DNA of 23,144 bases from Gracilibacteraceae bacterium (GTDB taxonomy: Bacteria; Bacillota; Desulfitobacteriia; Desulfitobacteriales; Syntrophobotulaceae), in the NCBI GenBank assembly GCA_031255985.1, contig JAIRRL010000198.1, positions 1-23,144 on the forward strand, read 5' to 3'. Within the stretch, counting starts at the first letter, position 1. Each line of letters opens with the position of its first letter. Under the pieces are notes generated by a model, which was not told where the DNA came from, made no database searches, and saw nothing but the letters and a program-made list of their open reading frames with translations. A program made the translations under genes and the position numbers. Shown here piece after piece: positions 2 to 13,474 of this stretch.

Positions 2-160
2 TATGTGCATATATGGCATGACATTTTCAAGCTTCTTGCTGACGTGAAAAATCAGCAAGTGGAGGATTTTTTCATTGATTACCTCGTCAACGATGAAAAA
101 AACCGACCGGATATAACAAGGATAGTTGATATCTACTTTGTGATCTCCAACGACCAGTAA
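2..160 (+). CDS. 3' fragment of an unidentified protein-coding gene that runs off the window start
   Basis: Frame 2 is open from the window edge to a TAA at about 158-160 (…HIWHDIFKLLADVKNQQVEDFFIDYLVNDEKNRPDITRIVDIYFVISNDQ*). AT-richer than the neighbours. No family recognised. Confidence 0.25.
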   Translation, partial: YVHIWHDIFKLLADVKNQQVEDFFIDYLVNDEKNRPDITRIVDIYFVISNDQ

Positions 161-285: not shown

Positions 286-344
286 CGCCCTTTAGCCGCC
301 GCGCCGGGGCGCGGCGGCTAAAGGGCGCGTTCTATTTTTGCTCC
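286..344. terminator. Long perfect palindrome (about 19-bp arms, CGCCCTTTAGCCGCCGCGCC/GGCGCGGCGGCTAAAGGGCG) followed by a T-run on the + strand. Likely a bidirectional intrinsic terminator between the convergent gene at the window start and the ferredoxin gene.
   Basis: Read directly: a GC-rich stem of about 19 bp with a GGG loop, then TTCTATTTTTG. It lies just 3' of both the + fragment and the minus-strand fdx stop. Confidence 0.5.
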
Positions 345-532
345 AGCGCCTCTTTGGGGCAAAAGTCGATGCATTCGCCGCACATCACGCATTTTTCCCC
401 GTCGATTTCAGGCAGCGCAAATATATCTTTTTGCGTTATCGCCTCCTGCGGGCAAACCGCGATCGCGGGACATTTGTGATCTTGCGGACATTTATCCGGG
501 TTGACCGTCACCCGCCCGGCGGCGGCCGTCAT
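332..532 (-). CDS. 2x[4Fe-4S] ferredoxin
   Basis: 66 aa with two Cys clusters (CPQDHKCPAIAVCP and CVMCGECIDFCP), typical of clostridial-type ferredoxins. Its start overlaps the stop of the upstream trxB-like gene (ATGA). Confidence 0.8.
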   Translation of the reverse strand: MTAAAGRVTVNPDKCPQDHKCPAIAVCPQEAITQKDIFALPEIDGEKCVMCGECIDFCPKEALEQK

Positions 533-1752
533 CGGGTCATCCAGGCTCTGAGGGTCGATTCCAAGGTGTTGTAGCAGTCGGTACTCAGAGTGCCGCAGGC
601 GGTTTCCCGCTTCAAAAGGATAAACGTCCCCGGCGTTTGCACATTGTATTTGCGCGCCAGCATCTGCTTGCGGTACAAATCAATCTTCACCAGCTTGATT
701 TTGCCGGGGTATTCGGCGCTGATCTGTTCCGCCTTGGCGATGGCGTTGATGCTGAATTCGTTCATCGGACTCCAGAAAGCGAGCAATATCTGATCGCTGC
801 CGGCGACCATCGTCTTGTACTCTTCAAATTCTTCAATATAGTGGCCGGCGGCGTGGGCCGCCACCGCTCCGTCCGCCGCCGCCGTCACGACCTGGCGCAG
901 GTATTTTTGCCGGCAGTCGCCGGCGGCGTAGACGCCGGATACCGAAGTCTCCATTTTGTCGCCGGTGATGATGTAGCCGTTTTTGTCGGTCTCGACCAAA
1001 TCCCGGACGACGCCGGTCATCGGCAAGAGACCCACATACATGAAAACACCGTCCACCGCCGTTTCGGTCAGGGCGCCGGTTTTCAGATTTTTGACGACGA
1101 TGGAGCTTACGTCCTCATCGCCTTTGATCTCAGCCAGCGAAGAGTTCCAGACGAATTCCAGCCGGGGATGCTGAAAAGCGATTTCGGCGCTCACTTTATT
1201 GCAGTCCACAATCCCTTCGTCGTGGATCACAATCACGATCACCTTGGCGGCGAACTTGGCGATATAGACCGCCTCTTCCAGCGCCGCGTCGCCGTTGCCG
1301 ACGACGGCGACGACGCAATCAGTGAAGTTTTCCGCGTCGCAGGTGGCGCAGTAGGAAACCCCCATCCCCCTGAATTCCTTCTCGCCGGGGACGCCGAGCA
1401 GACGAGGCTCGGTGCCCAGCGCCAGCACGACGCTCTTAGCCTGGTATTCCGGGCCTTTTTTCAGGCGGATAGTCTTGGGATCGCCCTCCAGGCTCAGTTC
1501 CCGCACTTCGCCCCGCGTGAACTCCACGCCGAATTTTTCGGCGTGAGCGCGAAAATCGGCCATCAGGGCCGGGCCGGAGACATGGGCGTGAAAACCGGGA
1601 TAATTGGCGATTTCTCTGGTCGAGTAAGCGGCGCCGCCAACCGCGCCTTTTTCAATGATCAAAGTCTTCAAACGGGAACGGCCGCCGTAGACGCCGGCCG
1701 CCATTCCGGCGGCGCCGCCGCCTATAATTATGATATCATACAGATTATCCAC
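529..1752 (-). CDS. trxB: Thioredoxin reductase-family flavoprotein with a C-terminally fused thioredoxin-like domain that lacks CxxC
   Basis: FAD motif GGGAAG. Redox-active CATC (CATCDA). The second dinucleotide motif GNGDAALEEA is present, but the NADPH-specific HRRD is replaced by IHDEG. C-terminal ~100 aa align to the thioredoxin fold (ILLAFW-SPMN… versus FWAEWCGPCK) with both active-site Cys absent. GTG start preceded by a GGGGG RBS. Confidence 0.8.
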   Translation of the reverse strand: MDNLYDIIIIGGGAAGMAAGVYGGRSRLKTLIIEKGAVGGAAYSTREIANYPGFHAHVSGPALMADFRAHAEKFGVEFTRGEVRELSLEGDPKTIRLKKGPEYQAKSVVLALGTEPRLLGVPGEKEFRGMGVSYCATCDAENFTDCVVAVVGNGDAALEEAVYIAKFAAKVIVIVIHDEGIVDCNKVSAEIAFQHPRLEFVWNSSLAEIKGDEDVSSIVVKNLKTGALTETAVDGVFMYVGLLPMTGVVRDLVETDKNGYIITGDKMETSVSGVYAAGDCRQKYLRQVVTAAADGAVAAHAAGHYIEEFEEYKTMVAGSDQILLAFWSPMNEFSINAIAKAEQISAEYPGKIKLVKIDLYRKQMLARKYNVQTPGTFILLKRETACGTLSTDCYNTLESTLRAWMTR

Positions 1753-1764
1753 GTTTACCCCCGT

Positions 1765-2085
1765 TCAGCCTATGGCCGCTATTTTTTCGCGCACCTGCTC
1801 CTCCGTCACCGGTCCCGCCAGTTTGCCCTGATAGTCGCCGTCCTTGAAAAACATCAAAGAGGGCACTCCTTTCAGCGGGTAAGTCTTGTAAAGAGACGCC
1901 TGTTCCTCGACGTCGACATAGTAGAAAGCACATTCGGAAGCCAATTCCGGCGCCAGTTCCTCCAGCATCGGCACGACTTCGGCGCAGACGTGACAGTTTT
2001 GGCGGGAAAAAACAATCAGACATTTTCCCCGGCCTTCGATCACGTTCCGCTCGAAAGAATCGGCGTCCAGTTTGGTTATAGCCAT
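1765..2085 (-). CDS. trx: Thioredoxin-family protein with a CHVC active site
   Basis: 106 aa of thioredoxin-fold length, with …FSRQNCHVCAEVVP… at the canonical position and a cis-Pro region (GVPSLMFF). AAAGGAGG RBS 7 nt upstream. Confidence 0.75.
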   Translation of the reverse strand: MAITKLDADSFERNVIEGRGKCLIVFSRQNCHVCAEVVPMLEELAPELASECAFYYVDVEEQASLYKTYPLKGVPSLMFFKDGDYQGKLAGPVTEEQVREKIAAIG

Positions 2086-2148
2086 TTCGCCTGTCCTCCT
2101 TTGCTTGACTGTCCGCTTCTGTCGGACTGTAAAAATATGGTATCGGCC

Positions 2149-3747
2149 CTATTGCAGAAACTCCAGGTACGGCTGCTTCAGTTCGGCCATGGCGTTGACC
2201 ATAATCTCCACCAGACCGCCGTATTGCAGATTATACTGTTCCGTCGCCTTATAGACTTCGAAAATTTCGCGCAGCGTCCCTTTGCAATTGGAACAGGGAG
2301 CGCAGACATACTTGGGCAGACTTTGATCCGTCATTTCCAGGGTAAAGGCGTTCAAAATCTGGGCGAACTTCATGCGGCCGCTGACCTGGTTGCGAAAAGA
2401 GCTGAAGTTGGGCGAGTTCATGATGGCAAAACCCGAACCGCCGCCGCAACAGTAGTTGTCCACGCCATGGGGCGTCATTTCCCGGAAAGCAGGGCACAGG
2501 GCCTGAAGGATATCCCGCTGGGGTTTTACCACCCCCATCTGCCGCACCAAATTGCAAGGGTCGTGCAAGGTCACCGGGAACGGGTTTTTGGCCGGGTCAA
2601 ACCGAATCTGTTTTTTTGTCACCATCTCCGCCAAAAGAGGGAGGGAGCTTTCCACCGGCAGCCGTTCCTCCGCCCTGATCAAGCGGTCGGAGACAATGAG
2701 GGCCGCCTTATGGGCGTGACCGCATTCCCCCACGACGACGCGGCGGATACCCAAAGCCTTCATAGCTTCGATCTGTTTCAGGGCGATCTTTTTCGCCTGG
2801 ATGTCGTCGTACCAGATTCCGTAGTTTACGCTGTCATAAGTCATGACTTCGCTGGAAAGCGTCCAGTCAAGCCCGGCTTTGTTAAACAAAATAGCGTAAG
2901 CCGCCGGGTTTTCCGGCCAGGCGACGAACTCGCCCGCGTTGTGGTAGAGTAAAATATCGGCGCCTTTTTTGTCCACCGGTATTTTTATCGACTGACCGAT
3001 TCGCTCGCCTGTGTCGTCCTCCAAAAATTCCACCATATCCAAAAACGCCGCTTTGCCGATGCCGGTGGAAGAGCCAACTTTCAGTTGCAGCATACTGCCT
3101 TTGTCGTGCAGCGGCGTCGGGGCCAGGCCCATTTCTTGGCTGAAAATCTTGCGGATCTCCTTGGCAAAAAGGGAATTGTCCAAACCGAGGGGACATGCCT
3201 GAGCGCAGCGCCGGCACAGATTGCAGCGGTAAGCCAGTTCCCCCAGGCGGCCGATGGTTTCCCAGGTGGCGTCGATCTCGGAGGCGGAAAGCGCTCGCCG
3301 GAGGGCGCCCATCCCGCTGAAATGGCTGCGGTAAAGTTTGCGCAATACCTCGGCCCGGAAAATGGGGCGGTGGGGTTCCTGGCCGCCGGAAGCCTGGAAA
3401 ACATGGCAAGCCTCGGAGCAGGTATTACATTTGGCGCAGTATTCAAAGGACAGTTCCAGGGGTTGGCGCACGCCGTTGTTGGCGTCGGAAAAAAGCTTGC
3501 CCAGGCCCTGCAAAAATTTTTCCACGAAAGCTTTCTTTTCTTCGTCGCTCGCCGGCGGCCGCATAGTGTCAATGGCCACGCAGCCGTCCAAACTGGTGCA
3601 GTATTTTTCCCGCCATTCCGGCTTTATCTCGGCGAACTTGGGTTCCGGCCACTGATCATAAGGCGCGGGCAACGGCGGCAGAGAATCGTAGTTTATAAGC
3701 CGCTCCGTCCGGCGGCCTAAATCCTTGGGCGCTATAATCCCGCTCAT
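2149..3747 (-). CDS. HdrD/DsrK-like cytoplasmic iron-sulfur protein (two ferredoxin-type 4Fe-4S motifs plus a CCG domain)
   Basis: CAKCNTCSEACHV and CNLCRRCAQACP are Cx2Cx2Cx3CP motifs. The C-terminal CCG signature is HDPCNL…CPAF…NYCCGGGSG…CAPCSNC. No signal peptide. Start overlaps the upstream membrane-protein stop (ATGA). Confidence 0.75.
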   Translation of the reverse strand: MSGIIAPKDLGRRTERLINYDSLPPLPAPYDQWPEPKFAEIKPEWREKYCTSLDGCVAIDTMRPPASDEEKKAFVEKFLQGLGKLFSDANNGVRQPLELSFEYCAKCNTCSEACHVFQASGGQEPHRPIFRAEVLRKLYRSHFSGMGALRRALSASEIDATWETIGRLGELAYRCNLCRRCAQACPLGLDNSLFAKEIRKIFSQEMGLAPTPLHDKGSMLQLKVGSSTGIGKAAFLDMVEFLEDDTGERIGQSIKIPVDKKGADILLYHNAGEFVAWPENPAAYAILFNKAGLDWTLSSEVMTYDSVNYGIWYDDIQAKKIALKQIEAMKALGIRRVVVGECGHAHKAALIVSDRLIRAEERLPVESSLPLLAEMVTKKQIRFDPAKNPFPVTLHDPCNLVRQMGVVKPQRDILQALCPAFREMTPHGVDNYCCGGGSGFAIMNSPNFSSFRNQVSGRMKFAQILNAFTLEMTDQSLPKYVCAPCSNCKGTLREIFEVYKATEQYNLQYGGLVEIMVNAMAELKQPYLEFLQ

Positions 3748-4619
3748 GTTTTTTCTCCTTCCTGGCCGGCAGCCGGCGCCGGGTTAGCATGCGGCGCGCT
3801 CCAGACCGTCTGCGGTTTGTTTTTCAGCGCCCGGTCCACCTGAGCCGCCATGCCGGAATTTTTCAGATTGGCGGCGTTGTCCCACAAAAAACGGTGGTAA
3901 GCAAAAAACTTGCCGACATAATGGCTCATTTTGCCGATGGGTATATATATGAGCAGACCGTAGACCAAAAGCAGGTGTACAGCCGCCAAAACTCCGGGCG
4001 GCGTGTAGGAGAGAGTCAGAATGTTCCGCATGGCGAGGCGGGCCGAGTCGGAAAACAGGCCGTCGCCGAACCAGAGACATGCGCCGGTAAGAAACGCCGC
4101 AAACAAGAGGATCAGATTCAGATATTCCTGGGGGGTGGTATAGATGCGCAGACGTTTGTCCGCCAAACGGCGCGCGAGTAAAATCAGCGAGCCGGCGCCG
4201 CCCAGCAGAAAGCCCAAAAAACCGCAGAGCGCCGTCAAGACCCGCAGCGCTTCCACATTGCCGGCGCCGGTCAGGGCGGTCAGGATCAGGAGCAGCGTCC
4301 AGACAAACAGACAGTACATGCCGAAGTGAAAAGGCCAGGAAGCCAGCCAAAAACTGCGGCTGCCGTGAAAGAGACGCTTGATGAATACGATTTCCCCCCC
4401 CATTTCCGCCAGTTCCGCCATATGCGAAACTTGCCGGGGTTTAGTCCACCATTCCGGTTCCTCCAGATAGGAACCGCCGTGTTTCCGGCCTTTTTCCGCC
4501 GGCGCCGGATAAAGCTCCATGCGCCCGTGCAGCGGCAGCCGGTTTAACCGGTAGGCCCTGAGGGCCGAGAGAGCAAGGAAAAGCCCCGCCGCGACGTAGG
4601 CCCCTATCCCAAACAGCAT
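3744..4619 (-). CDS. NarI/DsrM/HdrE-like integral-membrane b-type cytochrome (putative quinol-interacting subunit)
   Basis: 291 aa with about 5 hydrophobic helices and conserved-looking His in the helices (LHGRM, FHGSRSF, WPFHFGMY, AAVHLLLVYG). GGGAGG RBS. Immediately upstream of, and overlapping, the HdrD-like gene, which is the classical HdrED/DsrMK arrangement. Family assignment rests on topology and context, not on a search. Confidence 0.55.
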   Translation of the reverse strand: MLFGIGAYVAAGLFLALSALRAYRLNRLPLHGRMELYPAPAEKGRKHGGSYLEEPEWWTKPRQVSHMAELAEMGGEIVFIKRLFHGSRSFWLASWPFHFGMYCLFVWTLLLILTALTGAGNVEALRVLTALCGFLGFLLGGAGSLILLARRLADKRLRIYTTPQEYLNLILLFAAFLTGACLWFGDGLFSDSARLAMRNILTLSYTPPGVLAAVHLLLVYGLLIYIPIGKMSHYVGKFFAYHRFLWDNAANLKNSGMAAQVDRALKNKPQTVWSAPHANPAPAAGQEGEKT

Positions 4620-4669
4620 TATTCAATACCTCCCGTTCCTTGTCAGGGATTTTTTTATTCGTAATTTTC

Positions 4670-4698
4670 ATTATAAAAAAGACGGGGAGATAAGTAAA
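4670..4698 (-). promoter_or_regulatory. Candidate sigma-70 promoter for the cytochrome b/HdrD-like/trx/trxB/fdx operon
   Basis: On the minus strand, TTTACT, a 17-nt spacer and TATAAT sit in an AT-rich intergenic stretch, with the -10 about 50 nt upstream of the 4619 start. Confidence 0.35.
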
Positions 4699-4822
4699 AT
4701 CATAAATTTTTATTCCGCGATTATGTTTTATGATAGCAAGGCACAAATTTGATTTTTTGGATATATCAGGATATGATTATTGGCCTGGATATAAAGAACT
4801 TGCCGAAGACGGGAGAATTTTT

Positions 4823-5644
4823 TCAATTATTTCCGTTATGATGCCCGCTTCCGTTATGATGCCCGTTTCTGTTTTGGTTATTCGGCGCGGCGGCGTCCTC
4901 GCCGCCGGCATTGTCGCTGCTGTGACGGCTATTGCCGTGGCTTTGCGTAAGCTCGCGGATTTCGCCAATGGAATGATCGCGGCAGGAGTCCACGCTCGCG
5001 GTCGGGTCTACCTTTTGCAGTTCAAGAATAGCGAGGTATTTGGCGGGGCTGACGTCCTGTCCGCGCGCCTCGTTTCGCGCGTCCGCGCTAATAGGGAAGA
5101 CCTCCGTTCGCGGTTCGATATGATGTTTCGCCGCCGCCGCCGCCAGATTGGATTCCACGTCCGCGAGCATTGCGTTTTCCCTGTTCGTGTCGCCCGTCTG
5201 CACCGTGACGGCCAGTACGGCTTCGTCGCGCAGATAGCCTCTCGCGACGGCCGCGTCCACGATGAGCCGCATCGCCTCCCGGTAGCTTTTGTGTGTCAAA
5301 CCGGTCTCCGTGATAATGCCCGCGCCTTCGCCGTTATAGGCGCTCGCTTCGATCACGCGGCCGAATCGGTTAACGGCAAGTTCCACGGACGGGTTAATAT
5401 CGATATCAAGGAAAGCCGTCGCGCTGAAATAAGCGTAATGGGAGGACAGGCCCAGAAACAGCAGTAACGCGCAGGCCGCGGAGGCGAACGCGAACCTCAT
5501 TTTGTTGCGGCGCGCGAAAAACGGTTTCCCGCTTTCCCGTTTCCGCGATTCGTTCAAAATATATTCCAACGCTCCGGCCTTGAGACTGTCGTCCGCGCGA
5601 ATGGCGTCAAACGCATCCTTTATCTTATTCATCCGCGAAATCAC
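4823..5644 (-). CDS. Putative anti-sigma factor: N-terminal cytoplasmic segment, one TM helix, extracytoplasmic domain, His-rich C-terminal tail
   Basis: It overlaps the 3' end of the ECF sigma gene by 20 nt. There is a single hydrophobic helix (FAFASAACALLLFLGL). The tail NGHHNGSGHHNGNN is encoded by an 18-bp tandem duplication. Family not determinable without a search. Confidence 0.5.
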   Translation of the reverse strand: MISRMNKIKDAFDAIRADDSLKAGALEYILNESRKRESGKPFFARRNKMRFAFASAACALLLFLGLSSHYAYFSATAFLDIDINPSVELAVNRFGRVIEASAYNGEGAGIITETGLTHKSYREAMRLIVDAAVARGYLRDEAVLAVTVQTGDTNRENAMLADVESNLAAAAAKHHIEPRTEVFPISADARNEARGQDVSPAKYLAILELQKVDPTASVDSCRDHSIGEIRELTQSHGNSRHSSDNAGGEDAAAPNNQNRNGHHNGSGHHNGNN

Positions 5645-6113
5645 CTCCCAGCGCGTCCCTTAATCTCGCTTTCGCCCGCGCAAGCCACGTGTATACCGTG
5701 TTTTCGCTCCTGCCGAGCAGTTCGGCGATTTCCGGGGCGGAATAGCCCTCGTAGTAGAAAAGGTAGACGGCGTCCCTGTACTTCTCCGGCAGCGCCAGCA
5801 CGGCGTCCAGGACATCCCGGTTCTCGACCGGCAGATCAAAGAACGGCTCCGCCTCCAATTCCGTAAGCGACGACACCCTGCGCCGGAAAAAACTCTTCGC
5901 TGCATCCTTGCAATTGTTGACGGCGACGCGAATCAGCCACGCCTTTTCGTGTTCGCGGCTTGCAAAAGGCTCGTCGCGAAGCGCGTATTTCAGGAAGGTT
6001 TCCTGAAATACGTCCTCGACGTCGCCGTGATTTTTCAGGTGGAGAAAGCAGACGCGCCGCGCCGTGTCGGCGTAAAGCTCCACGGCGAGACGTATTTCGG
6101 CTTCACTTTTCAT
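5625..6113 (-). CDS. ECF-type RNA polymerase sigma-70 family factor
   Basis: Region 2 motif (…DVFQETFLKYA…EKAWLIRVAVNNCKD) and region 4 HTH (YRDAVYLFYYEGYSAPEIAELLGRSENTVYTWLARAKARL). Confidence 0.85.
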   Translation of the reverse strand: MKSEAEIRLAVELYADTARRVCFLHLKNHGDVEDVFQETFLKYALRDEPFASREHEKAWLIRVAVNNCKDAAKSFFRRRVSSLTELEAEPFFDLPVENRDVLDAVLALPEKYRDAVYLFYYEGYSAPEIAELLGRSENTVYTWLARAKARLRDALGGDFADE

Positions 6114-6121
6114 TCAGACTC

Positions 6122-6493
6122 CTAGTGGTGGGTACGCTTTTCCCTCGCGCGATCGTACCCGTGCCCGCAGCCTGTGGTATGGCCGAAGCAATACGTTCCG
6201 CCGTGTTCGTGATATCCGGCGAGCGTACAGCCGGAGACGGCGCAGTAGCCGTGGTAATCATGGCCGTCGTTTACGCCGTGCGCGCGGTAATATGCGCTGC
6301 CGTGCATGTGCAGCCCTGTTTCGCCGCAGTTTTCGACGTCGCAGATTGCGTAGTTCGCGTAGTTCGTATAGTTCGTGTAGTTCGTGTAGTTAGCTGTTTT
6401 TGCGCCGGCATTATGTCCGTGGGCGAAAACCGGAGCGGCGGCGAGCGTGGCCGCCAAAGCCGTGACTGTCAGTATCGTTATAATTTTCTTCAT
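6122..6493 (-). CDS. Small secreted His/Cys/Tyr/Gly-rich protein with an (NYT)n repeat; candidate periplasmic metal-binding protein
   Basis: Signal peptide MKKIITILTVTALAATLAAAPVFA|HG. Repeat NYTNYTNYTNYANY. Three repeats of C-x4-6-C followed by H-x-H(G): CDVENCGETGLHMHG, CAVSGCTLAGYHEHGG, CFGHTTGCGHGYD. The 123 aa contain about 16 His. GGGAGGA RBS. Ends 8 nt upstream of the sigma gene. Confidence 0.6.
   Translation of the reverse strand: MKKIITILTVTALAATLAAAPVFAHGHNAGAKTANYTNYTNYTNYANYAICDVENCGETGLHMHGSAYYRAHGVNDGHDYHGYCAVSGCTLAGYHEHGGTYCFGHTTGCGHGYDRAREKRTHH
6350..6394. repeat. 5 tandem copies of a 9-bp unit (GTAGTTCGY) inside the small His/Cys-rich gene, encoding the NYT/NYA repeats
   Basis: Read directly: gtagttcgc gtagttcgt atagttcgt gtagttcgt gtagttagc. 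Confidence 0.8.
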
Positions 6494-8263: not shown

Positions 8264-9220
8264 TCAATTTTCTGAGTCCGCCATCTTCCGGGAAACGGTT
8301 TGTTGCATCGAGATTCGATTCTTGATAAGGGAGATAAAACTGTCCGGGGCGGTCACTCTCAGCATGGGGCCGAAGGCGAGGATGCGGATTAGGATTTCCC
8401 TCTCGTCCCGCGCCTCATACCAAAGCGTTACATCATACATTCCGTTATCAAGCCGCCGCGTCTCCTTGCGGCAGTCGGAGAAGTGGAGCATGACCCGGTC
8501 GAGTGCGTTCCGTTCGTTTTTCAGCGTAAACCGGACGGCGGCGGCGCGGCGTTTCGGCGCAATGAGTTTTTCGGCGTCGTATTCCTCCAGCAGTTCACAG
8601 CTTTCAATTTGTTTGAGGTTAATATAGACCGTATAGCGTCCGCCCGCTGTTTCGAGCCGGAATCTATCGTCTTTCGCGGAATACTCCAGCCGGTAAGGGA
8701 TAATCCGCACGTGCATAAGGCGGTTGCGGCGGTTGCGATATTTTATATGCAGCCGCCGCTTGCCCTGCATTGCCGCCAGAATCGTCTTAAACCGGGCGAT
8801 ATATTCATCGTCAGTAAACGGATCGCCGTCCGTGTAACGGTCAAAGAAGACGAAATCACCGGGCGTGAACAGAGGCTCTATTTCGTCAAGCCCGCTCATT
8901 GAAACGCTGAAGAGACCTATGCGCGGGTCGAGTGATACTGCTTTCAGCCATCTTTTCTGCAAGGTAGTCAACGGCATTTTGGGAATGTTCTTTATCGGCG
9001 TCTGGAAATTCTTATCCAAAACTGCCCACTCGCCGTTTTTCAAGGCTGGCAATATAGAGAGAACGCTCTCCGAAAACGCCCGCTCGCGGATAATCTCGTT
9101 AATCCGATTAACCGACAGCTTGCCGTCCAATGCTTCCGTTATTACCGCTGCCACGGCGTTGAAATATGCGGAGTAGACCTCGCTAAACAGCATTGCCGCC
9201 ACCCCCGTACATCGCGGCAA
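8264..9220 (-). CDS. WYL-domain transcriptional regulator (PafC-like second member of a pair)
   Basis: Central WYL-like segment (…RRLHIKYRNRRNRLMHVRIIPYRLEYSAKDDRFRLETA…). C-terminal WCX-like segment (…YDVTLWYEARDEREILIRILAFGPMLRVTAPDSFISLIKNRI). Confidence 0.55.
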   Translation of the reverse strand: MPRCTGVAAMLFSEVYSAYFNAVAAVITEALDGKLSVNRINEIIRERAFSESVLSILPALKNGEWAVLDKNFQTPIKNIPKMPLTTLQKRWLKAVSLDPRIGLFSVSMSGLDEIEPLFTPGDFVFFDRYTDGDPFTDDEYIARFKTILAAMQGKRRLHIKYRNRRNRLMHVRIIPYRLEYSAKDDRFRLETAGGRYTVYINLKQIESCELLEEYDAEKLIAPKRRAAAVRFTLKNERNALDRVMLHFSDCRKETRRLDNGMYDVTLWYEARDEREILIRILAFGPMLRVTAPDSFISLIKNRISMQQTVSRKMADSEN

Positions 9221-10424
9221 ATGCGGCGTAATCCGTCCAGAATTGCTGCTCGACCTTTTTATTGGAGCAGGTCAAAGACGATATGCGCCCGATGAAAGTC
9301 CTTAGCCACGGCATCAGTTCCCAAGCGTCATACACATCGGCGGTAAACGTCCACTCGTTCTCAGAAGTTTGCGTAACTTCCCCGCAGCGTTTTTCCCGCT
9401 CCAGACGGCGGATAATATGTATGTCTTTTGGGTCAATCGCGAGTATCATCTCCAAATGTTCGAGCCGGCACTGCCCGCAGGCGACGCCCCAAATGCGCGG
9501 CTGCTCTGTTTTGAGTGTTTCCTGGAGCGCCTCGTATTCAGCCTCGGTTTCCAGAGGCTTAACCTTAACGATAGCATCCAGGCGGAAAAAAACTATTTTC
9601 TTTTTCCATGCGCTGTATGCCGCTATGTACTGCCTGCCGCCCTGAGCGCTGATATAGATTTTCAGCGGAACTATAACGGCTTGCCTTCTGCCGCCGTGAC
9701 GGCCGGCGGCCAGTTCAAGCGCAACCTTTTGGCGCGCGCGAATAGCGGCGAGCAGATCCAAAAGGATGCCGTTATCCAAAGCGAACAGCAGGTACCTGTG
9801 TTTGAACGAGAACACGGTTGGTTTCGGCGCGCGATATTTGTCAAGGATAAAACTGCCGACCACGCCGAGCGGGTTACACTCGGAAAAAAACTCCGCTGCG
9901 TTTTGCCACGAATCCAAGTCCACGGTATCTGCGGCCAGCGAGTATAGATACTGCTTGCCGCTTTTGCCGGTCGTGAGCAATCCTGCGTCTGTGTACTCTT
10001 TCAGCTTTTTTCGCAGGGTCGATTCGTCTATCGGATCCGGGCAATCGAATGACGACAGATATTTCTCATCGATAGTTGCGAGCAACTCCATAAGGCTTCG
10101 AGGCTTGCCGTCAGCCAAAATATCAAGCAGGATAAAGTGGAGGTTGATGTCGTTTTTGGTAAAACTCGCGGCTTTCCACGCTCTGTACAGCGGATTGCGA
10201 GGTATATGGCGGCTGTCCACAGATAGAAAAACCGCCTTGCCGCCGGCGTCCTGCCGAAACGACATAAAGTCGCCGAGCCAGCTTTCAAGACGGCGTTTTT
10301 CGTTGTCATAGCTGCGCGGACTCTTTGTGCCGACCTCATCCCGACTCTTGAAGCCATATACAAAAAACTCCCGCATATAAACGCGAATACGCGACATGTT
10401 TTTGATTAGCTCTCTGTATGCCAT
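9183..10424 (-). CDS. HTH + WYL + WCX domain transcriptional regulator (PafB-like)
   Basis: Winged-helix region (GKPRSLMELLATIDEKY…). WYL core (…QYIAAYSAWKKKIVFFRLDAIVKVKPLE). WCX-like C-terminus (…WTFTADVYDAWELMPWLRTFIGRI). Overlaps the downstream WYL gene by 38 nt. Confidence 0.6.
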   Translation of the reverse strand: MAYRELIKNMSRIRVYMREFFVYGFKSRDEVGTKSPRSYDNEKRRLESWLGDFMSFRQDAGGKAVFLSVDSRHIPRNPLYRAWKAASFTKNDINLHFILLDILADGKPRSLMELLATIDEKYLSSFDCPDPIDESTLRKKLKEYTDAGLLTTGKSGKQYLYSLAADTVDLDSWQNAAEFFSECNPLGVVGSFILDKYRAPKPTVFSFKHRYLLFALDNGILLDLLAAIRARQKVALELAAGRHGGRRQAVIVPLKIYISAQGGRQYIAAYSAWKKKIVFFRLDAIVKVKPLETEAEYEALQETLKTEQPRIWGVACGQCRLEHLEMILAIDPKDIHIIRRLEREKRCGEVTQTSENEWTFTADVYDAWELMPWLRTFIGRISSLTCSNKKVEQQFWTDYAAFAAMYGGGGNAV

Positions 10425-10984: not shown

Positions 10985-11243
10985 AAGTTCCTCATTTCTT
11001 CATTTCTTCGCAACGAGCCGCGGCGCATTGTCCTCCGGCAGGGATCCGGGGCAGAGACCGCGGCGGTTCTGGCGCAGCCAAACCGTCAGAGTGGATTTTA
11101 CGCTTTGAAAAAGCGGGAGGAAACGTCACCGGCAGTCGCTGCGAGCCCGCAGTTCCAGCGCCAAAATGATTATACAGCAAACAAACAACGAGAACAACTG
11201 AAGAATTATCTTCGGGCGTCGTCTTCGGCGTCCCGGCGTCCTC

Positions 11244-11272
11244 TTGACAAGCGGGGTGAAAATATCTACAAT
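11244..11272 (+). promoter_or_regulatory. Perfect consensus sigma-70 promoter TTGACA-17-TACAAT ending 6 nt before the ATG at 11279 (leaderless or near-leaderless transcript)
   Basis: Read directly: cTTGACAagcggggtgaaaatatcTACAATgagtcgATGaat. There is no Shine-Dalgarno between the -10 and the ATG. Confidence 0.55.
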
Positions 11273-11278
11273 GAGTCG

Positions 11279-13474
11279 ATGAATAAAAATAAAATCGCCG
11301 TTTACGGCAAAGGCGGCATAGGCAAATCCACAGTCAGCGCCAATTTAGCCGCGGCGCTGGCGGAAACCGGCGTCCGGGTTCTGCAGATCGGCTGCGACCC
11401 CAAGCGCGATTCTACGCGCCTGCTCACGGGCGGGCGGCGGATCACGACGGTTTTGGATTATACGCGGGTTACGGGCCATGCGGAGCGCCGGATAGAGGAC
11501 GTGCTGTTCAGGGGGCGCCTGGGCGTGGGCTGTGTGGAAGCGGGCGGCCCGAAACCGGGAGTGGGCTGCGCGGGGCGGGGGATTATCTCCGCTTTTGAGC
11601 TGCTTGAACGCTTCGGGGCCGAAGCCGATTACGACGCCGTTATTTACGACGTGCTGGGCGACGTGGTCTGCGGCGGTTTTGCCGTGCCCATCAGGCGGGA
11701 ATACGCGAACATGATCTATATCGTCACTTCCGGCGAATTCATGGCTCTGTACGCGGCTAACAACATCCTGAGCGGAATCCGCAATTATGACGGCGATAAG
11801 CGGCGCGTGGCCGGCCTTATTTTCAACCGGCGCGGCTTGGAAGGGGAGGACGGGCGCGTCGCCCGTTTTGCCGCGGCCGTCCGGCTGCCGGTTTGCGCCG
11901 CCATACCCAGGAGCGGCGCTTTTGCCCGCTGCGAGGCGGAAAACAAAACGCTGCTTGAGGCTGGCTATGCACCGGCTGGGATTTTCAGGAAGCTGGCACG
12001 GGCGATTAACGCCGGCGTCAGCCTGTATGAAGCTCTGCCCCTGACGGAGGAAGAACTGGAAGGCGCCGTTCTGGGCCTGAGCGCCCCGCCCACCGCCGCC
12101 GGGATCCTCGCCGCTGACGCGGCCGAAACGGACAAGACCCGTTCGCCGGGGCGGAAGGACGATCCCGGCGGCGAAATGCTGTCTCTGAACATATTAAACG
12201 ACGATCCGCTCCACGGCTGCGCTTTCAACGGCGCCGTCACGATGGGCGTCCACCTGACGGACGCGGTGGTTCTCGCCCACTCGCCCCGGAGCTGCGCCTA
12301 TATTTCCTATCAGACGATCAGTTCTTCCGGCCGGCGCGGCCTGTTTGAGCGCGGACTCCTTTTGCCAAACTCCGTCTCGCCCAATCTGGAGTGCAGCTTC
12401 ATGAACGAAAACGATATGATTTTTGGCGGCTTGGACAAACTGGAGGCGAAAGTTCTGGAGCTGAAAAAGAAAAAGCCCAAGGCGATCATCGTCGTCAGCT
12501 CCTGCCCCTCCGGCATCATCGGGGACGACGTCAGCCGCGTTCTCCGCCACGCCGACGCCGGTACGCCTGTCATCGCCGTCAAAACCGACGGCAATCTCAC
12601 CGGCGATTATTTGCAGGGTATGCTGAACCTCTATACCGCTCTCGCCCGCGGCGTCATAGAGCGGAACGTCGAAGCGATCCCTGACGCGGTCAATATCGTC
12701 TTTGAAAAAGTGGTCGCCAAAAACACCGGCGCGAATTTCAGCGTTATCGAAGGTTTTTTGCGCCGTCTCGGCCTGAAAGTGAACTGCCGCTTCCTATGCG
12801 AAACGACTTTTGACCGGCTGCGGAATTTCCTGGCCGCCCCCCTCAATCTGCTGGCAAGTAATGACTATACAGGGAGATTGCTCCAAAAATTCTTTACGGC
12901 TGAATATGGCTGCGTATTTTTGCAGGACGGCTTCCCCGTAGGTTTTGACGAGACGAAAACCTGGCTGTTTCGGGTCGCGGATTTTTTTGGCCGGCGCGCG
13001 GCGGCGGCGGATTTGCTCCGGGAACACGAAGCCGGCTACCGGCGGCGGATGGAAGCTTTGCGGCCGGCTTTGCAAGGGCGCAAGCTGATGATCGTCACCT
13101 ACAACCACAATGTCGATTGGATATTGAAAGCCGCTATGGACGCGGGGATGGAAATCGTGAAACTCGGCATACTGAAATTTTCCCAGGACGCCGGTTTCGT
13201 GACCAAACTGGGCACAGGGCTGAACGTCGAGGAAAATTACGACGGGAACAAGCGGGAGGCCGACATGCGGCAATACGGCCCGGACGTGTTGCTGACCAAC
13301 TACAATTCCACGGACGAACCGGCGTCCGTCCTGACGGACACGATTCCCATGTGTCCCGACGTCGGTTTTTACTCCGGCCTGAACATGGTCAGCCGCTGGG
13401 CGGCGCTGCTGGAAAATAATTTGCGCGGGGAGTGGATGGACGATAAACGGCTCTTTGACAAATATTACGCCTGA
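11279..13474 (+). CDS. Nitrogenase-like fusion protein: NifH/BchL-type Fe-protein ATPase domain joined through a Pro/Ala-rich linker to a NifD/NifE-type component-1 domain
   Basis: The N-terminus MNKNKIAVYGKGGIGKST is a P-loop, with switch I/II regions present. The [4Fe-4S] ligand Cys are conserved (CVEAGGPKPGVGCAGRGI; DVLGDVVCGGFAVP). A linker of about 35 aa (PPTAAGILAADAAETDKTRSPGRKDDPGG) follows. The C-terminal domain carries NifD/E-type cluster motifs (HGCAFNGA; SPRSCAYIS; VSSCPSGIIGDD). The ORF track extends 58 codons upstream to a TTG at 11105, but that extension lies upstream of the consensus promoter and has no RBS, so the ATG at 11279 is preferred. Confidence 0.8.
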   Translation: MNKNKIAVYGKGGIGKSTVSANLAAALAETGVRVLQIGCDPKRDSTRLLTGGRRITTVLDYTRVTGHAERRIEDVLFRGRLGVGCVEAGGPKPGVGCAGRGIISAFELLERFGAEADYDAVIYDVLGDVVCGGFAVPIRREYANMIYIVTSGEFMALYAANNILSGIRNYDGDKRRVAGLIFNRRGLEGEDGRVARFAAAVRLPVCAAIPRSGAFARCEAENKTLLEAGYAPAGIFRKLARAINAGVSLYEALPLTEEELEGAVLGLSAPPTAAGILAADAAETDKTRSPGRKDDPGGEMLSLNILNDDPLHGCAFNGAVTMGVHLTDAVVLAHSPRSCAYISYQTISSSGRRGLFERGLLLPNSVSPNLECSFMNENDMIFGGLDKLEAKVLELKKKKPKAIIVVSSCPSGIIGDDVSRVLRHADAGTPVIAVKTDGNLTGDYLQGMLNLYTALARGVIERNVEAIPDAVNIVFEKVVAKNTGANFSVIEGFLRRLGLKVNCRFLCETTFDRLRNFLAAPLNLLASNDYTGRLLQKFFTAEYGCVFLQDGFPVGFDETKTWLFRVADFFGRRAAAADLLREHEAGYRRRMEALRPALQGRKLMIVTYNHNVDWILKAAMDAGMEIVKLGILKFSQDAGFVTKLGTGLNVEENYDGNKREADMRQYGPDVLLTNYNSTDEPASVLTDTIPMCPDVGFYSGLNMVSRWAALLENNLRGEWMDDKRLFDKYYA

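What the first reader, a model, noticed from the sequence alone, without database searches (positions are those of the whole stretch)
332..4698. HdrED/DsrMK-like membrane module in one operon with thioredoxin, a thioredoxin-reductase fusion and ferredoxin: candidate membrane-linked thiol-disulfide redox system
- The five genes are tightly packed on one strand (overlaps of ATGA type, 13- and 63-nt gaps) behind a single promoter.
- HdrED and DsrMK complexes reduce small-molecule or protein disulfides using membrane quinols (established knowledge for the families).
- Pairing such a module with a CHVC thioredoxin and a TrxR-family flavoprotein suggests thioredoxin-type disulfides are the substrate.
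- Electrons may be exchanged between the membrane quinone pool or ferredoxin and the cellular thiol pool.
- This is not the canonical NADPH-TrxR-Trx arrangement. It could represent an energy-conserving or quinol-driven disulfide reductase in an anaerobe.
Basis: inference. Interest (0 to 1): 0.7.

Follow-up and report, generated by a model that had tools for sequence, protein, structure and literature searches.

The report
DsrMK paralogue operon with dedicated thioredoxin system
A real five-gene operon joins a membrane DsrMK-type disulfide reductase to an unusual thioredoxin, a thioredoxin reductase that has lost its NADPH site, and a small ferredoxin; comparison with relatives suggests it is a detached piece of the sulfite-respiration (Dsr) machinery, not a stand-alone quinol-to-thioredoxin system.

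Summary
Five tightly packed minus-strand genes (4619..332) sit behind one promoter and before one strong terminator: a NarI/DsrM-like membrane protein, a DsrK-like Fe-S/CCG protein, a thioredoxin with an NCHVC site, a TrxR fused to a cysteine-less Trx fold, and a 66-aa ferredoxin.

- The MK pair belongs to a conserved paralogue ("M1K1") that lies directly upstream of fdx-dsrAB-dsrD in Desulfosporosinus, Desulfitobacterium, Syntrophomonas and Eggerthellaceae.
- The exact cassette recurs in only one sister Gracilibacteraceae MAG.
- In another Gracilibacteraceae genome, the orthologous trx-trxR pair lies inside a full dsr locus, immediately upstream of dsrAB-fdx-dsrC.
- Protein accession series and a 90%-identical DsrA pair suggest that both cassette-bearing MAGs carry dsrAB elsewhere.
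- The TrxR belongs to an apparently uncharacterised subfamily in which HRRxxxR is replaced by HDEGIVD, so NADPH is unlikely to be its donor.

Best reading: this is a Dsr accessory operon. DsrM1K1 probably reduces the DsrC trisulfide or disulfide with menaquinol. A dedicated NADH- or ferredoxin-fed Trx system probably acts on the same protein-bound sulfur chemistry. Direct DsrK-thioredoxin coupling is not excluded and lacks comparative support. In the reductive direction it is also thermodynamically uphill. I rate it a new variant of a known kind, of moderate interest.

The parts
4710..4724 (-). Operator-like box ATAATCGCGGAATAA. It is a degenerate form of the TTATC-N5-GATAA box found about 10 nt upstream of the -35 element in dsrM1 promoters of other genera.
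   Evidence: Similar boxes stand at the same distance from an ATTTTAC(A) -35 element in many dsrM1K1 loci. Its function is inferred.
4670..4698 (-). Sigma-70-type promoter TTTACT-17 nt-TATAAT.
   Evidence: 10 of 12 consensus matches. It is conserved in L006. The ATTTTACA -35 word is present upstream of dsrM1 in 40 of 67 loci.
3744..4619 (-). DsrM-like (M1 type) NarI-family membrane protein, 291 aa.
   Evidence: PF02665 scores 32.4 bits against a cut-off of 22.9. NCBIfam DsrM scores only 38.8 bits against a cut-off of 300. H98, H215 and H233 are shared with canonical DsrM. The second helix-II histidine is absent in 64/64 M1 sequences. H31 and H242 are specific to the M1 clade.
2149..3747 (-). 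DsrK-like (K1 type) catalytic Fe-S subunit, 532 aa.
   Evidence: NCBIfam DsrK NF045796 scores 351 bits against a cut-off of 400. It has two CxxCxxCxxxC motifs, the GECGH cysteine C342, and the CCG motif C398/C433/C434/C485/C488, all conserved in 84/84 K1 sequences. It is 27% identical to canonical DsrK.
1765..2085 (-). Atypical thioredoxin, 106 aa, with active site NCHVC and no tryptophan before the first cysteine.
   Evidence: PF00085 scores 58.9 bits. TIGR01068 scores 52 bits against a cut-off of 96.8. Orthologues carry C[H/R/K][V/E]C. The closest solved structure is 3gnj, with the same SRKNCHVC motif and 112.9 bits.
529..1752 (-). Low-Mr TrxR-family flavoprotein fused to a C-terminal Trx fold without cysteines, 407 aa.
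   Evidence: TIGR01292 scores 334 bits against a cut-off of 343. CATC and GNGDAA are kept. HRRxxxR is replaced by HDEGIVD. The C-terminal domain has WSPMNEFS in place of WCxxC. These features hold in about 120 homologues.
332..532 (-). Small ferredoxin, 66 aa, translationally coupled to trxR. The second cluster motif is canonical; the first is atypical (CPQDHKCPAIAVCP), giving 7 cysteines in all.
   Evidence: It is present only in the window and in L006. It is not the orthologue of the 60-62-aa ferredoxin of dsr loci.
286..327 (.). GC-rich hairpin that closes the operon, with a 19-bp stem containing 15 GC pairs.
   Evidence: The sequence was read. A convergent gene fragment follows at 5..160 on the plus strand.

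Best explanation
The operon is a detached accessory module of dissimilatory sulfite reduction (Dsr) in a Gracilibacteraceae bacterium.

- DsrM1K1 is the paralogue that normally heads fdx-dsrAB operons in Bacillota and Eggerthellaceae. By homology it takes electrons from menaquinol through the DsrM haem(s) and the two cubane clusters of DsrK to the non-cubane CCG cluster and the GECGH cysteine. There a protein-bound trisulfide or disulfide is reduced, most probably that of DsrC, which would be encoded elsewhere in the genome.
- A pathway-dedicated thioredoxin system is co-transcribed with it. The TrxR-family flavoprotein cannot bind the 2'-phosphate of NADPH. It is therefore probably reduced by NADH or by the translationally coupled ferredoxin.
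- This TrxR reduces the atypical NCHVC thioredoxin.
- The thioredoxin then provides a soluble route of electrons to the same sulfur chemistry: the DsrC trisulfide or disulfide, persulfides, or the catalytic cysteines of DsrK.
- This parallels the CoA-disulfide-reductase/rhodanese flavoprotein that occupies the same position in other dsr loci.

Shown: gene families, motifs, operon structure and synteny.
Inferred: the substrates, the electron donor and the direction of electron flow.
For: 1. K1 carries every catalytic cysteine that defines DsrK: two cubane motifs, one CCG motif and GECGH (definitions from PMC10861901). It keeps 185 of 191 clade-invariant columns.
2. M1K1 orthologues at 62-69% identity lie directly upstream of [CoADR-rhodanese]-fdx-dsrA-dsrB-dsrD. 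In 48 loci with enough downstream sequence, 32 contain dsrA. NCBIfam confirms dsrA, dsrB, canonical DsrK and DsrM, and DsrC in those loci.
3. In Gracilibacteraceae L011/L091, the orthologous trx (66% identical) and trxR (78-80%) lie between dsrMKJOP and dsrA-dsrB-fdx-dsrC-dsrN. In L071, trx-trxR precedes dsrM1K1-CoADR-fdx.
4. The window DsrK has accession MDR0434928. A Gracilibacteraceae DsrA has MDR0433694, in the same accession series. The sister MAG's DsrK (MDR1603251) and DsrA (MDR1604938) are likewise in one series.
5. That sister DsrA lies on a contig from the same JGI sample as the sister cassette. Its contig carries fdx-dsrABD-dsrMKJOP-dsrC-dsrN. The two DsrA proteins are 90% identical, matching DsrK at 87% and TrxR at 89%.
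6. The operon promoter is homologous to the dsrM1 promoters of dsrAB-linked loci.
7. A flavoprotein disulfide reductase follows dsrK1 directly in 24 of 80 loci, so Trx+TrxR occupies a recurrent slot.
8. Precedents exist. Trx1 captured DsrC in Desulfovibrio vulgaris (bioRxiv 10.1101/2024.09.27.615472). A trxA3/trxB3 pair with an atypical active site is embedded in the clostridial glycine reductase operon (PMC10880999).
Against: - No dsrAB or dsrC lies on the 23-kb contig, nor on the 10-kb sister contig. Assignment of dsrAB to the same MAG rests on accession numbering, sample identity and matching divergence, not on an assembled link.
- The exact cassette is known from two MAGs only.
- No experiment shows that the K1 paralogue acts on DsrC. 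K1 is only 27% identical to characterised-type DsrK and scores below NCBI's DsrK cut-off.
- M1 lacks one of the four NarI-type haem histidines, so its haem content and quinone coupling are uncertain.
- Coriobacteriia carry 64-66% identical trx-trxR pairs next to arylsulfotransferase and MFS genes, with no dsr genes within 10 kb. The pair is therefore not exclusively linked to Dsr.
Confidence: 0.5

Rival explanations
1. DsrM1K1 is a menaquinol:thioredoxin oxidoreductase: quinol electrons reduce the NCHVC thioredoxin directly at the DsrK CCG site, possibly driven by the proton-motive force. TrxR and ferredoxin act as an alternative input.
For: - trx directly follows dsrK in one transcript, and there is no dsrC on the contig.
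- The same layout occurs in the sister MAG.
- The thioredoxin has an unusual CxxC dipeptide with a basic residue after the first cysteine. This could raise its potential, which is an inference.
- Window and L006 K1 share 5 deviations from clade-invariant residues, including G303T.
Against: - Menaquinol is at about -70 to -80 mV and the DsrK non-cubane cluster at +90 mV (PMC10861901, PMC4543118). A typical thioredoxin is at about -270 mV (own knowledge). The reaction is uphill by about 0.2 V.
- The presence of a TrxR makes a second reductant for the same thioredoxin redundant.
- In L011/L091 the same trx-trxR pair is separated from dsrK1 by dsrMKJOP and abuts dsrAB.
- 77 of 80 K1 loci have no such thioredoxin.
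Confidence: 0.1
2. A reverse thiol relay into the quinone pool. Electrons flow from NADH or reduced ferredoxin to TrxR, then to Trx(SH)2, then to DsrK1 and DsrM1, and finally to menaquinone. This would be a cytoplasmic counterpart of DsbA-DsbB that uses thioredoxin as the carrier to feed respiration.
For: - This direction is downhill, from about -270 mV to about -75 mV.
- Dsr proteins including DsrMKJOP also operate in sulfur oxidisers (PMC10861901). That DsrMK then runs towards the quinone is my inference.
- The operon contains every component needed and nothing else.
Against: - There is no precedent for thioredoxin as a DsrK or HdrD substrate.
- Synteny ties K1 to dsrAB and ties the Trx pair to dsrAB-dsrC.
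- The cassette is phylogenetically very narrow.
- M1 lacks a distal-haem histidine, which weakens any argument for efficient transmembrane electron transfer.
Confidence: 0.08
3. There is no functional coupling. The trx-trxR-fdx genes form a general thiol-repair or oxidative-stress system that became co-transcribed with a spare dsrMK copy by rearrangement.
For: - The roughly 400-aa TrxR subfamily is widespread in Peptococcaceae-like Bacillota and is annotated simply as TrxR.
- In Coriobacteriia the pair sits away from any dsr gene.
- An ECF sigma and anti-sigma pair lies upstream in the window.
Against: - There are three different arrangements in Gracilibacteraceae, each placing trx-trxR next to dsr genes.
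- The spacing is tight, and the promoter is conserved and of dsr type.
- The ECF sigma neighbourhood is not conserved in L006.
- The Trx-docking residues of the TrxR are altered (GMG in place of GRG, AENF in place of GAFF, criteria from PMC5627308). Together with the atypical thioredoxin, this argues for a specialised pair.
Confidence: 0.15

Closest known systems
DsrMK module of the DsrMKJOP menaquinol:DsrC-trisulfide oxidoreductase (Archaeoglobus fulgidus; PMC10861901)
   Same: It pairs a NarI-type membrane subunit with a cytoplasmic subunit. That subunit has two cubane motifs, a single CXnCCGXnCX2C motif and the GECGH cysteine. Orthologues are syntenic with dsrAB, dsrD, dsrC and dsrN.
   Different: - It is only 27% identical to canonical DsrK.
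- It scores below NCBI's equivalog cut-offs: K 351 against 400, M 38.8 against 300.
- The last CCG ligand is Cys, not Asp.
- M1 lacks the second helix-II haem histidine and has two clade-specific histidines.
- There is no JOP module, and here no dsrAB or dsrC on the contig.
HdrED heterodisulfide reductase of methanogens
   Same: It has the same architecture, a membrane cytochrome b plus a CCG-type Fe-S subunit, and the same thiol/disulfide chemistry at a non-cubane cluster.
   Different: HdrD has two CCG motifs. The window protein has one complete motif plus the lone GECGH cysteine, which is the DsrK/HmcF/TmcB pattern. The TfrB/Hdr-type NCBIfam hit scores only 38 bits.
Pathway-dedicated TrxA3/TrxB3 embedded in the clostridial glycine reductase (grd) operon (PMC10880999)
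   Same: A Trx/TrxR pair with a non-WCGPC active site is encoded inside the operon of the reductase it serves. This is the best functional analogy for a Dsr-dedicated thioredoxin system.
   Different: TrxB3 keeps the NAD(P)H motifs GxGxxA and HRRxxxR, whereas the window TrxR has HDEGIVD. The active site is [G/S]C[V/E]PC there and NC[H/R]VC here. The target pathway is also different.
NAD(P)H-independent or atypical low-Mr thioredoxin reductases: FFTR (PDB 6gna), DvTRi (PDB 5nii), and the NADH-preferring DvTR3 (PMC5627308)
   Same: The HRRD 2'-phosphate motif is lost while the CxxC disulfide and FAD motifs are kept. The adjacent ferredoxin gene suggests a possible ferredoxin donor.
   Different: By sequence the window enzyme sits with ordinary NTRs (286 bits to 5uwy), not with FFTR (109 bits) or DvTRi (83 bits). 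Its motif is HDE, which is acidic and looks NADH-like, not TQ/NGK. It also has an extra Cys-less Trx-fold domain.
TrxR-Trx fusion proteins (fused TrxA/TrxB organisations are noted in PMC10880999; the examples NTRC of plastids and cyanobacteria and Mycobacterium leprae TrxR-Trx are from my own knowledge)
   Same: The domain order is the same: an N-terminal low-Mr TrxR followed by a C-terminal thioredoxin fold.
   Different: The C-terminal domain has no CxxC (WSPMNEFS) in the window protein and in essentially all of the roughly 120 homologues. It cannot be a redox-active thioredoxin. A separate Trx gene is present.
PDB 3gnj 'thioredoxin domain protein' (a structural-genomics entry; from memory it comes from Desulfitobacterium hafniense)
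   Same: It has the same SRKNCHVC active-site context. It scores 112.9 bits, against about 50 bits for ordinary thioredoxins.
   Different: I know of no function assigned to it. The organism is recalled from memory and was not checked.
CoA-disulfide reductase/rhodanese flavoproteins (Npsr/CoADR-RHD type) encoded between dsrK1 and fdx in other dsr loci
   Same: It occupies the same slot in the locus (24 of 80 loci). It belongs to the same superfamily of pyridine-nucleotide disulfide oxidoreductases acting on S-S bonds.
   Different: It is a different family: TIGR03385-like at 397 bits, with a dimerisation domain and a rhodanese domain. It is a single polypeptide with no thioredoxin partner.

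Membership tests
DsrK (catalytic subunit of DsrMK/DsrMKJOP) | Two canonical [4Fe-4S] motifs CxxCxxCxxxC | tested here: met
   C104/107/110/114 and C175/178/181/185 are conserved in 84/84 K1 and 10/10 K2 sequences.
DsrK (catalytic subunit of DsrMK/DsrMKJOP) | A single CCG motif CXnCCGXnCX2C for the non-cubane cluster | tested here: met
   C398, C433, C434, C485 and C488 are present. The last residue is Cys here and Asp in JOP-linked K2, and both variants are described in PMC10861901. PF02754 scores 32.4 bits.
DsrK (catalytic subunit of DsrMK/DsrMKJOP) | A conserved catalytic cysteine in a GECGH motif | tested here: met
   GECGH lies at residues 340-344. C342 is invariant in K1 and K2.
DsrK (catalytic subunit of DsrMK/DsrMKJOP) | Score at or above the NCBIfam equivalog cut-off (NF045796, 400 bits) | tested here: not met
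   The score is 351.1 bits. Canonical K2 from L008 scores 735 bits. K1 is a paralogous subfamily.
DsrK (catalytic subunit of DsrMK/DsrMKJOP) | Genomic association with dsrAB and dsrC | tested here: inconclusive
   The feature is met for orthologues: 32 of 48 loci contain dsrA. It is absent from the window contig. A DsrA in the same accession series points to the same MAG.
DsrM / NarI-type dihaem cytochrome b | Pfam PF02665 at or above the gathering score | tested here: met
   32.4 bits against 22.9.
DsrM / NarI-type dihaem cytochrome b | Four conserved histidines, two in helix II and two in helix V, giving two bis-His haems | tested here: not met
   H98, H215 and H233 are conserved. The second helix-II histidine, present in 11/11 canonical DsrM, is T108 in the window and absent in 64/64 M1 sequences.
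DsrM / NarI-type dihaem cytochrome b | NCBIfam DsrM equivalog cut-off (NF038037, 300 bits) | tested here: not met
   38.8 bits, against 538.9 bits for canonical M2.
HdrD (methanogen heterodisulfide reductase) | Two complete CCG motifs | tested here: not met
   There is only one complete motif plus the GECGH cysteine (criterion from PMC10861901).
GlcF / LutA / GlpC type CCG proteins | Best profile match to those families | tested here: not met
   LdhH scores 39.6 bits, LutB 21.8 and GlpC 20.2, against 351 bits for DsrK.
Thioredoxin (TrxA) | Thioredoxin fold with a CxxC site and a cis-Pro | tested here: met
   PF00085 scores 58.9 bits. C31-H-V-C34 and GVPS are present.
Thioredoxin (TrxA) | Canonical WCGPC active site and the equivalog score (TIGR01068, 96.8 bits) | tested here: not met
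   The site is NCHVC and the score is 52.3 bits.
NADPH-dependent low-Mr thioredoxin reductase (NTR) | Redox-active CATC and FAD-binding motifs | tested here: met
   SYCATCDA is invariant, and GGGAAG lies at the N-terminus.
NADPH-dependent low-Mr thioredoxin reductase (NTR) | VxxxHRRDxxR motif that binds the 2'-phosphate of NADPH | tested here: not met
   The sequence aligned to HRRDQLR is HDEGIVD. It is conserved across about 120 homologues. The criterion comes from PMC5627308.
NADPH-dependent low-Mr thioredoxin reductase (NTR) | Trx-docking residues G[R/K]G and Phe after the CxxC | tested here: not met
   The window has GMG and CDAENF where Gram-positive NTRs have SRG/GRG and CDGAFF.
Ferredoxin-dependent flavin thioredoxin reductase (FFTR) | Membership of the FFTR sequence clade | tested here: not met
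   6gna scores 109 bits, against 286 bits for an ordinary TrxR.
Ferredoxin-dependent flavin thioredoxin reductase (FFTR) | Reduction by ferredoxin and not by NAD(P)H | not testable with these tools
   The only hint is the translationally coupled ferredoxin gene.
NTRC-type TrxR-Trx fusion | Redox-active CxxC in the fused thioredoxin domain | tested here: not met
   WSPMNEFS replaces WCxxC.

The most novel reading that the evidence does not exclude
The NCHVC thioredoxin is itself a diffusible substrate of the DsrK1 non-cubane cluster. The cassette would then be a thioredoxin:menaquinone oxidoreductase, working in either direction. It would wire the cytoplasmic protein-thiol pool and an NADH- or ferredoxin-fed flavoprotein directly to the membrane quinone pool. 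That would be a cytoplasmic counterpart of DsbA-DsbB built from Hdr/Dsr parts.
Probability: 0.17. Interest if true: 0.8.

Novelty: new variant of a known kind. Interest (0 to 1): 0.45.

Why it matters
How electrons reach DsrC and DsrAB in organisms that are not classical sulfate reducers is still open. So is the role of thioredoxin in that step: the interactome preprint 10.1101/2024.09.27.615472 reports Trx1-DsrC contacts in Desulfovibrio vulgaris without a mechanism.

Here, and in two related genomes, a specialised Trx/TrxR pair is genetically tied to dsr genes. This gives a concrete, testable candidate for a soluble, NADPH-independent route to the DsrC trisulfide or disulfide. Such a route could let fermentative gut bacteria use sulfite as an NADH or ferredoxin sink.

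The work also defines three groups, none described in the papers found by the few full-text searches made here:
- a DsrM1K1 paralogue whose membrane subunit lacks one haem ligand;
- a large TrxR subfamily with an HDE motif and a cysteine-less Trx fold;
- their atypical C[H/R/K][V/E]C thioredoxin partner.

If thioredoxin proved to be the direct DsrK substrate, it would be a new kind of membrane-thiol redox link.

Tried and rejected
- **Exact look-ups.** The window DsrK and the DsrA P0286 are not on record. The 3.1-kb dsrA contig of the presumed window MAG could therefore not be read.
- **Metagenome scan.** A scan with the TrxR returned one locus at 49% identity, which was not informative.
- **FFTR or DvTRi membership of the TrxR.** Rejected on sequence.
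- **NTRC-like fusion.** Rejected because the fused domain has no CxxC.
- **HdrD identity.** Rejected because there is only one CCG motif.
- **GlcF/LutA/GlpC identity.** Rejected.
- **Window ferredoxin as the orthologue of the dsr-locus ferredoxin.** Rejected. The length and first cluster motif differ, and it matches only L006.
- **Palindrome ATCATAAA-N20-TTTATGAT upstream of the promoter.** It is not found upstream of dsrM1 in other loci, so it was dropped. The ATTTTACA plus TTATC-N5-GATAA architecture is the conserved element.
- **Regulation by the upstream ECF sigma/anti-sigma pair.** Not supported, because that neighbourhood is absent in L006.
- **Literature.** Searches for DsrMK with thioredoxin, dsrAB with thioredoxin reductase, and Gracilibacteraceae with sulfite found no description of a dsr-linked Trx/TrxR operon. 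The library lacks most subscription papers, so this is weak negative evidence.
- **Not attempted.** Complex prediction for DsrK with Trx or DsrC was not run, because the structure tool folds only single window proteins.

Full report
**1. The observation**

The region 332-4698 holds five minus-strand ORFs:
- a 291-aa membrane protein (4619..3744);
- a 532-aa Fe-S protein (3747..2149);
- a 106-aa thioredoxin (2085..1765);
- a 407-aa TrxR-family protein (1752..529);
- a 66-aa ferredoxin (532..332).

The sequence shows ATGA overlaps at the first and last junctions. The other two gaps are 63 nt and 12 nt, and good Shine-Dalgarno sites are present.

A TTTACT-17-TATAAT promoter lies at 4698..4670. 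A 19-bp GC-rich hairpin at 286..327 closes the unit. A convergent gene fragment follows at 5..160.

**2. Source and surroundings**

The window is an entire 23,144-bp contig of a Gracilibacteraceae MAG (P0001 is 100% identical).

The rest of the contig carries:
- an ECF sigma/RsgI-like anti-sigma pair;
- an SPFH protein and a WYL protein;
- a NifH::NifD-like fusion with a NifK/BchB-like partner;
- an ABC exporter and an H+-pyrophosphatase;
- a split transketolase and a tRNA.

There is no dsrAB or dsrC on the contig.

**3. What the membrane module is**

The Fe-S protein matches NCBIfam DsrK best, at 351 bits against a cut-off of 400. It then matches HmcF and TmcB. Lactate- and glycerol-3-phosphate-type CCG proteins score 40 bits or less. 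The GlcF/LutA alternative therefore fails.

The protein has the features that PMC10861901 uses to define DsrK:
- two cubane motifs;
- one CXnCCGXnCX2C motif (C398, C433, C434, C485, C488);
- the GECGH cysteine (C342).

HdrD would need two CCG motifs.

The membrane protein passes Pfam NarI, at 32.4 bits against 22.9. It scores only 38.8 bits on the DsrM equivalog model, whose cut-off is 300.

Alignment of 64 relatives with 11 canonical DsrM sequences gives this picture:
- H98, H215 and H233 are shared with canonical DsrM.
- The second helix-II haem histidine is missing in all 64 relatives.
- Two other histidines, H31 and H242, are invariant only in this clade.

I call the pair M1K1. It is a paralogue, 27% identical at the K level, of the canonical M2K2 of DsrMKJOP. 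Canonical M2 and K2 score 539 and 735 bits on the NCBI models.

**4. Synteny**

Eighty genome loci with K1 relatives at 61-87% identity were mapped by BLASTP against reference proteins.

The dominant pattern is:

dsrM1 - dsrK1 - [CoA-disulfide-reductase/rhodanese flavoprotein] - fdx (about 62 aa) - dsrA - dsrB - dsrD - then either dsrN or RsbRD_N-dsrMKJOP.

This pattern occurs in Syntrophomonas, Desulfosporosinus, Desulfitobacterium and Gracilibacter BRH_c7a. Eggerthellaceae have haem-biosynthesis genes intercalated.

- Of 48 M1K1 loci with at least 3 kb downstream, 32 contain dsrA.
- The flavoprotein follows dsrK1 directly in 24 of 80 loci.
- The identities of DsrA, DsrB, DsrC, M2 and K2 were confirmed with NCBIfam.

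The exact window cassette recurs only in L006/L010, a Gracilibacteraceae MAG called Nc350_bin127. There DsrK is 87% identical and TrxR 89% identical. Its flanks are unrelated to the window's, but its promoter is conserved.

In Gracilibacteraceae L011 and L091 the orthologous trx (66%) and trxR (78-80%) lie between dsrMKJOP and dsrA-dsrB-fdx-dsrC-dsrN. In L071, trx-trxR precedes dsrM1K1.

In Coriobacteriia, pairs at 64-66% identity lie next to a LysR gene, an arylsulfotransferase and an MFS transporter, with no dsr genes.

**5. Does the window organism reduce sulfite?**

The evidence is indirect but consistent.
- NCBI accessions place the window DsrK (MDR0434928) and a Gracilibacteraceae DsrA (MDR0433694, on a 3.1-kb contig) in one accession series.
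- The sister MAG's DsrK (MDR1603251) and DsrA (MDR1604938) are likewise in one series.
- The sister DsrA contig comes from the same JGI sample as the sister cassette. It carries fdx-dsrABD-RsbRD_N-dsrMKJOP-dsrC-dsrN-resB-ccsA.
- The two DsrA proteins are 90% identical, matching the divergence of DsrK and TrxR.

I infer that both cassette-bearing genomes have a full dsr locus, and that the M1K1 pair has been separated from it and joined to trx-trxR-fdx.

The cassette promoter keeps the architecture of dsrM1 promoters elsewhere. The ATTTTACA -35 word occurs in 40 of 67 upstream regions. A TTATC-N5-GATAA-like box lies about 10 nt further upstream.

The window K1 keeps 185 of 191 clade-invariant columns.

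**6. The thioredoxin system**

By sequence the TrxR sits with ordinary low-Mr TrxRs. It scores 286 bits to 5uwy, against 109 bits to FFTR 6gna and 83 bits to DvTRi 5nii.

In the alignment, the NADPH 2'-phosphate motif HRRDQLR corresponds to HDEGIVD. The docking residues GRG and GAFF correspond to GMG and AENF (criteria from PMC5627308).

Across about 120 homologues:
- CATC and GNGDAA are kept;
- HDEG[IV][VL]D is kept;
- the C-terminal Trx fold always has WSPxxExS in place of WCxxC.

This is a coherent subfamily of Peptococcaceae-like Bacillota that I found no characterisation of. NADPH is unlikely to be its donor. The acidic residues suggest NADH, and the translationally coupled ferredoxin is the other candidate. 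Both donors are inference.

The ferredoxin has an atypical first cluster motif and occurs only in the two cassette MAGs.

The thioredoxin and its orthologues carry xC[H/R/K][V/E]C without the tryptophan. Their closest solved relative is 3gnj, which has the same NCHVC site.

**7. Mechanism**

The best-supported reading has two parts.
- M1K1 does what DsrMK does: it reduces the DsrC trisulfide or disulfide with menaquinol. This activity was shown for A. fulgidus DsrMKJOP (PMC10861901).
- The co-transcribed, specialised Trx system gives a soluble NADH- or ferredoxin-fed route to the same protein-bound sulfur chemistry.

Three observations are consistent with this:
- The CoADR-rhodanese flavoprotein occupies the same slot elsewhere, which suggests functional equivalence.
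- Trx1 captured DsrC in D. vulgaris.
- A Trx pair is embedded in the clostridial grd operon.

It is also uphill by roughly 0.2 V. Menaquinol is at about -70 to -80 mV and the DsrK cluster at +90 mV according to the cited papers. The thioredoxin value of about -270 mV is from my own knowledge.

The reverse relay, from Trx to DsrK to menaquinone, is downhill and not excluded, but it has no precedent.

Incidental co-transcription of a stress Trx system is made less likely by three independent dsr-adjacent arrangements within one family.

**8. Novelty**

Multiple DsrMK copies and pathway-embedded Trx systems are both known. A DsrMK-Trx-TrxR-Fd operon, and trx-trxR inside dsr loci, were not found in the searchable literature. 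That library is incomplete, so this is weak negative evidence.

I rate this a new variant of a known kind. Interest is 0.45. The novel case, thioredoxin as the direct DsrK substrate, has a probability of about 0.17.

Noticed in passing
window 11105-14732 (+): A 789-aa fusion of a NifH-like ATPase with a NifD/NifE-like domain is followed by a 425-aa NifK/BchB-like protein. The best NCBIfam hit is CfbC at 298 bits, below the cut-off of 402. This is a nitrogenase-like system of unknown function, and the H-D fusion is unusual.
   Followed up: partly
window 4670-4724 (-); upstream of dsrM1 in L001, L003, L007, L008, L012, L023, L041 and others: The promoter architecture of dsrM1K1 operons is conserved across Bacillota and Actinomycetota. 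The -35 word ATTTTACA occurs in 40 of 67 upstream regions, followed by 17 nt and a TAAACT-like -10. A TTATC-N5-GATAA-like box lies about 10 nt upstream. LysR-type regulator genes are adjacent in L005 and L007, and next to trx in L092. A shared regulator is likely but was not identified.
   Followed up: partly
window 3744-4619 (-) and 64 homologues: The M1-type DsrM lacks the second helix-II haem histidine of NarI and canonical DsrM in all 64 sequences. It has two clade-specific invariant histidines, H31 and H242, predicted on the cytoplasmic side. Its haem content may therefore differ from that of canonical DsrM.
   Followed up: partly
window 529-1752 (-); P0121-P0240: There is a large TrxR subfamily of about 400 aa in Pelotomaculum, Desulforamulus, Desulfosporosinus, Syntrophomonas, Formimonas and others. 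It has HDEG[IV][VL]D in place of HRRxxxR and a C-terminal thioredoxin fold without cysteines. Databases annotate it as ordinary thioredoxin-disulfide reductase.
   Followed up: partly
L001, L008, L013, L014, L021, L030, L037, L050, L064, L071 and others, directly downstream of dsrK1: A flavoprotein of about 557 aa, resembling CoA-disulfide reductase and carrying a rhodanese domain, sits between dsrK1 and fdx-dsrAB in 24 of 80 loci. TIGR03385 scores 397 bits, below its cut-off. This is a recurrent and apparently undescribed Dsr-associated disulfide or persulfide reductase.
   Followed up: partly
L092, L093, L094 (Coriobacteriia) and L007 1572-3008: trx-trxR pairs 64-66% identical to the window's lie next to LysR, an arylsulfotransferase (PF05935) and an MFS transporter. 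An arylsulfotransferase/MFS/CitMHS cluster also lies just upstream of dsrM1K1 in L007. This hints at a link to sulfated aromatic compounds.
   Followed up: no
window 332-532 (-): The ferredoxin has seven cysteines. Its second motif, CVMCGECIDFCP, is canonical. Its first motif, CPQDHKCPAIAVCP, is atypical, so one cluster may be [3Fe-4S] or may have a non-cysteine ligand. Pfam LdpA_Fe-S-bd scores 32.6 bits.
   Followed up: no
window 6122-6493 (-): This is a 123-aa protein with an N-terminal signal-like segment, NYT repeats (NYTNYTNYTNYANY) and a His/Cys/Gly-rich C-terminal half. It has no family hit. It lies just upstream of, and on the same strand as, the ECF sigma (6113..5625) and the RsgI-like anti-sigma (5644..4823), so all three may be co-transcribed.
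   Followed up: no
window 8264-10424 (-): A 413-aa WYL-domain protein overlaps a 318-aa ORF that has no family hit. The region has a lower GC content of 0.48-0.53.
   Followed up: no
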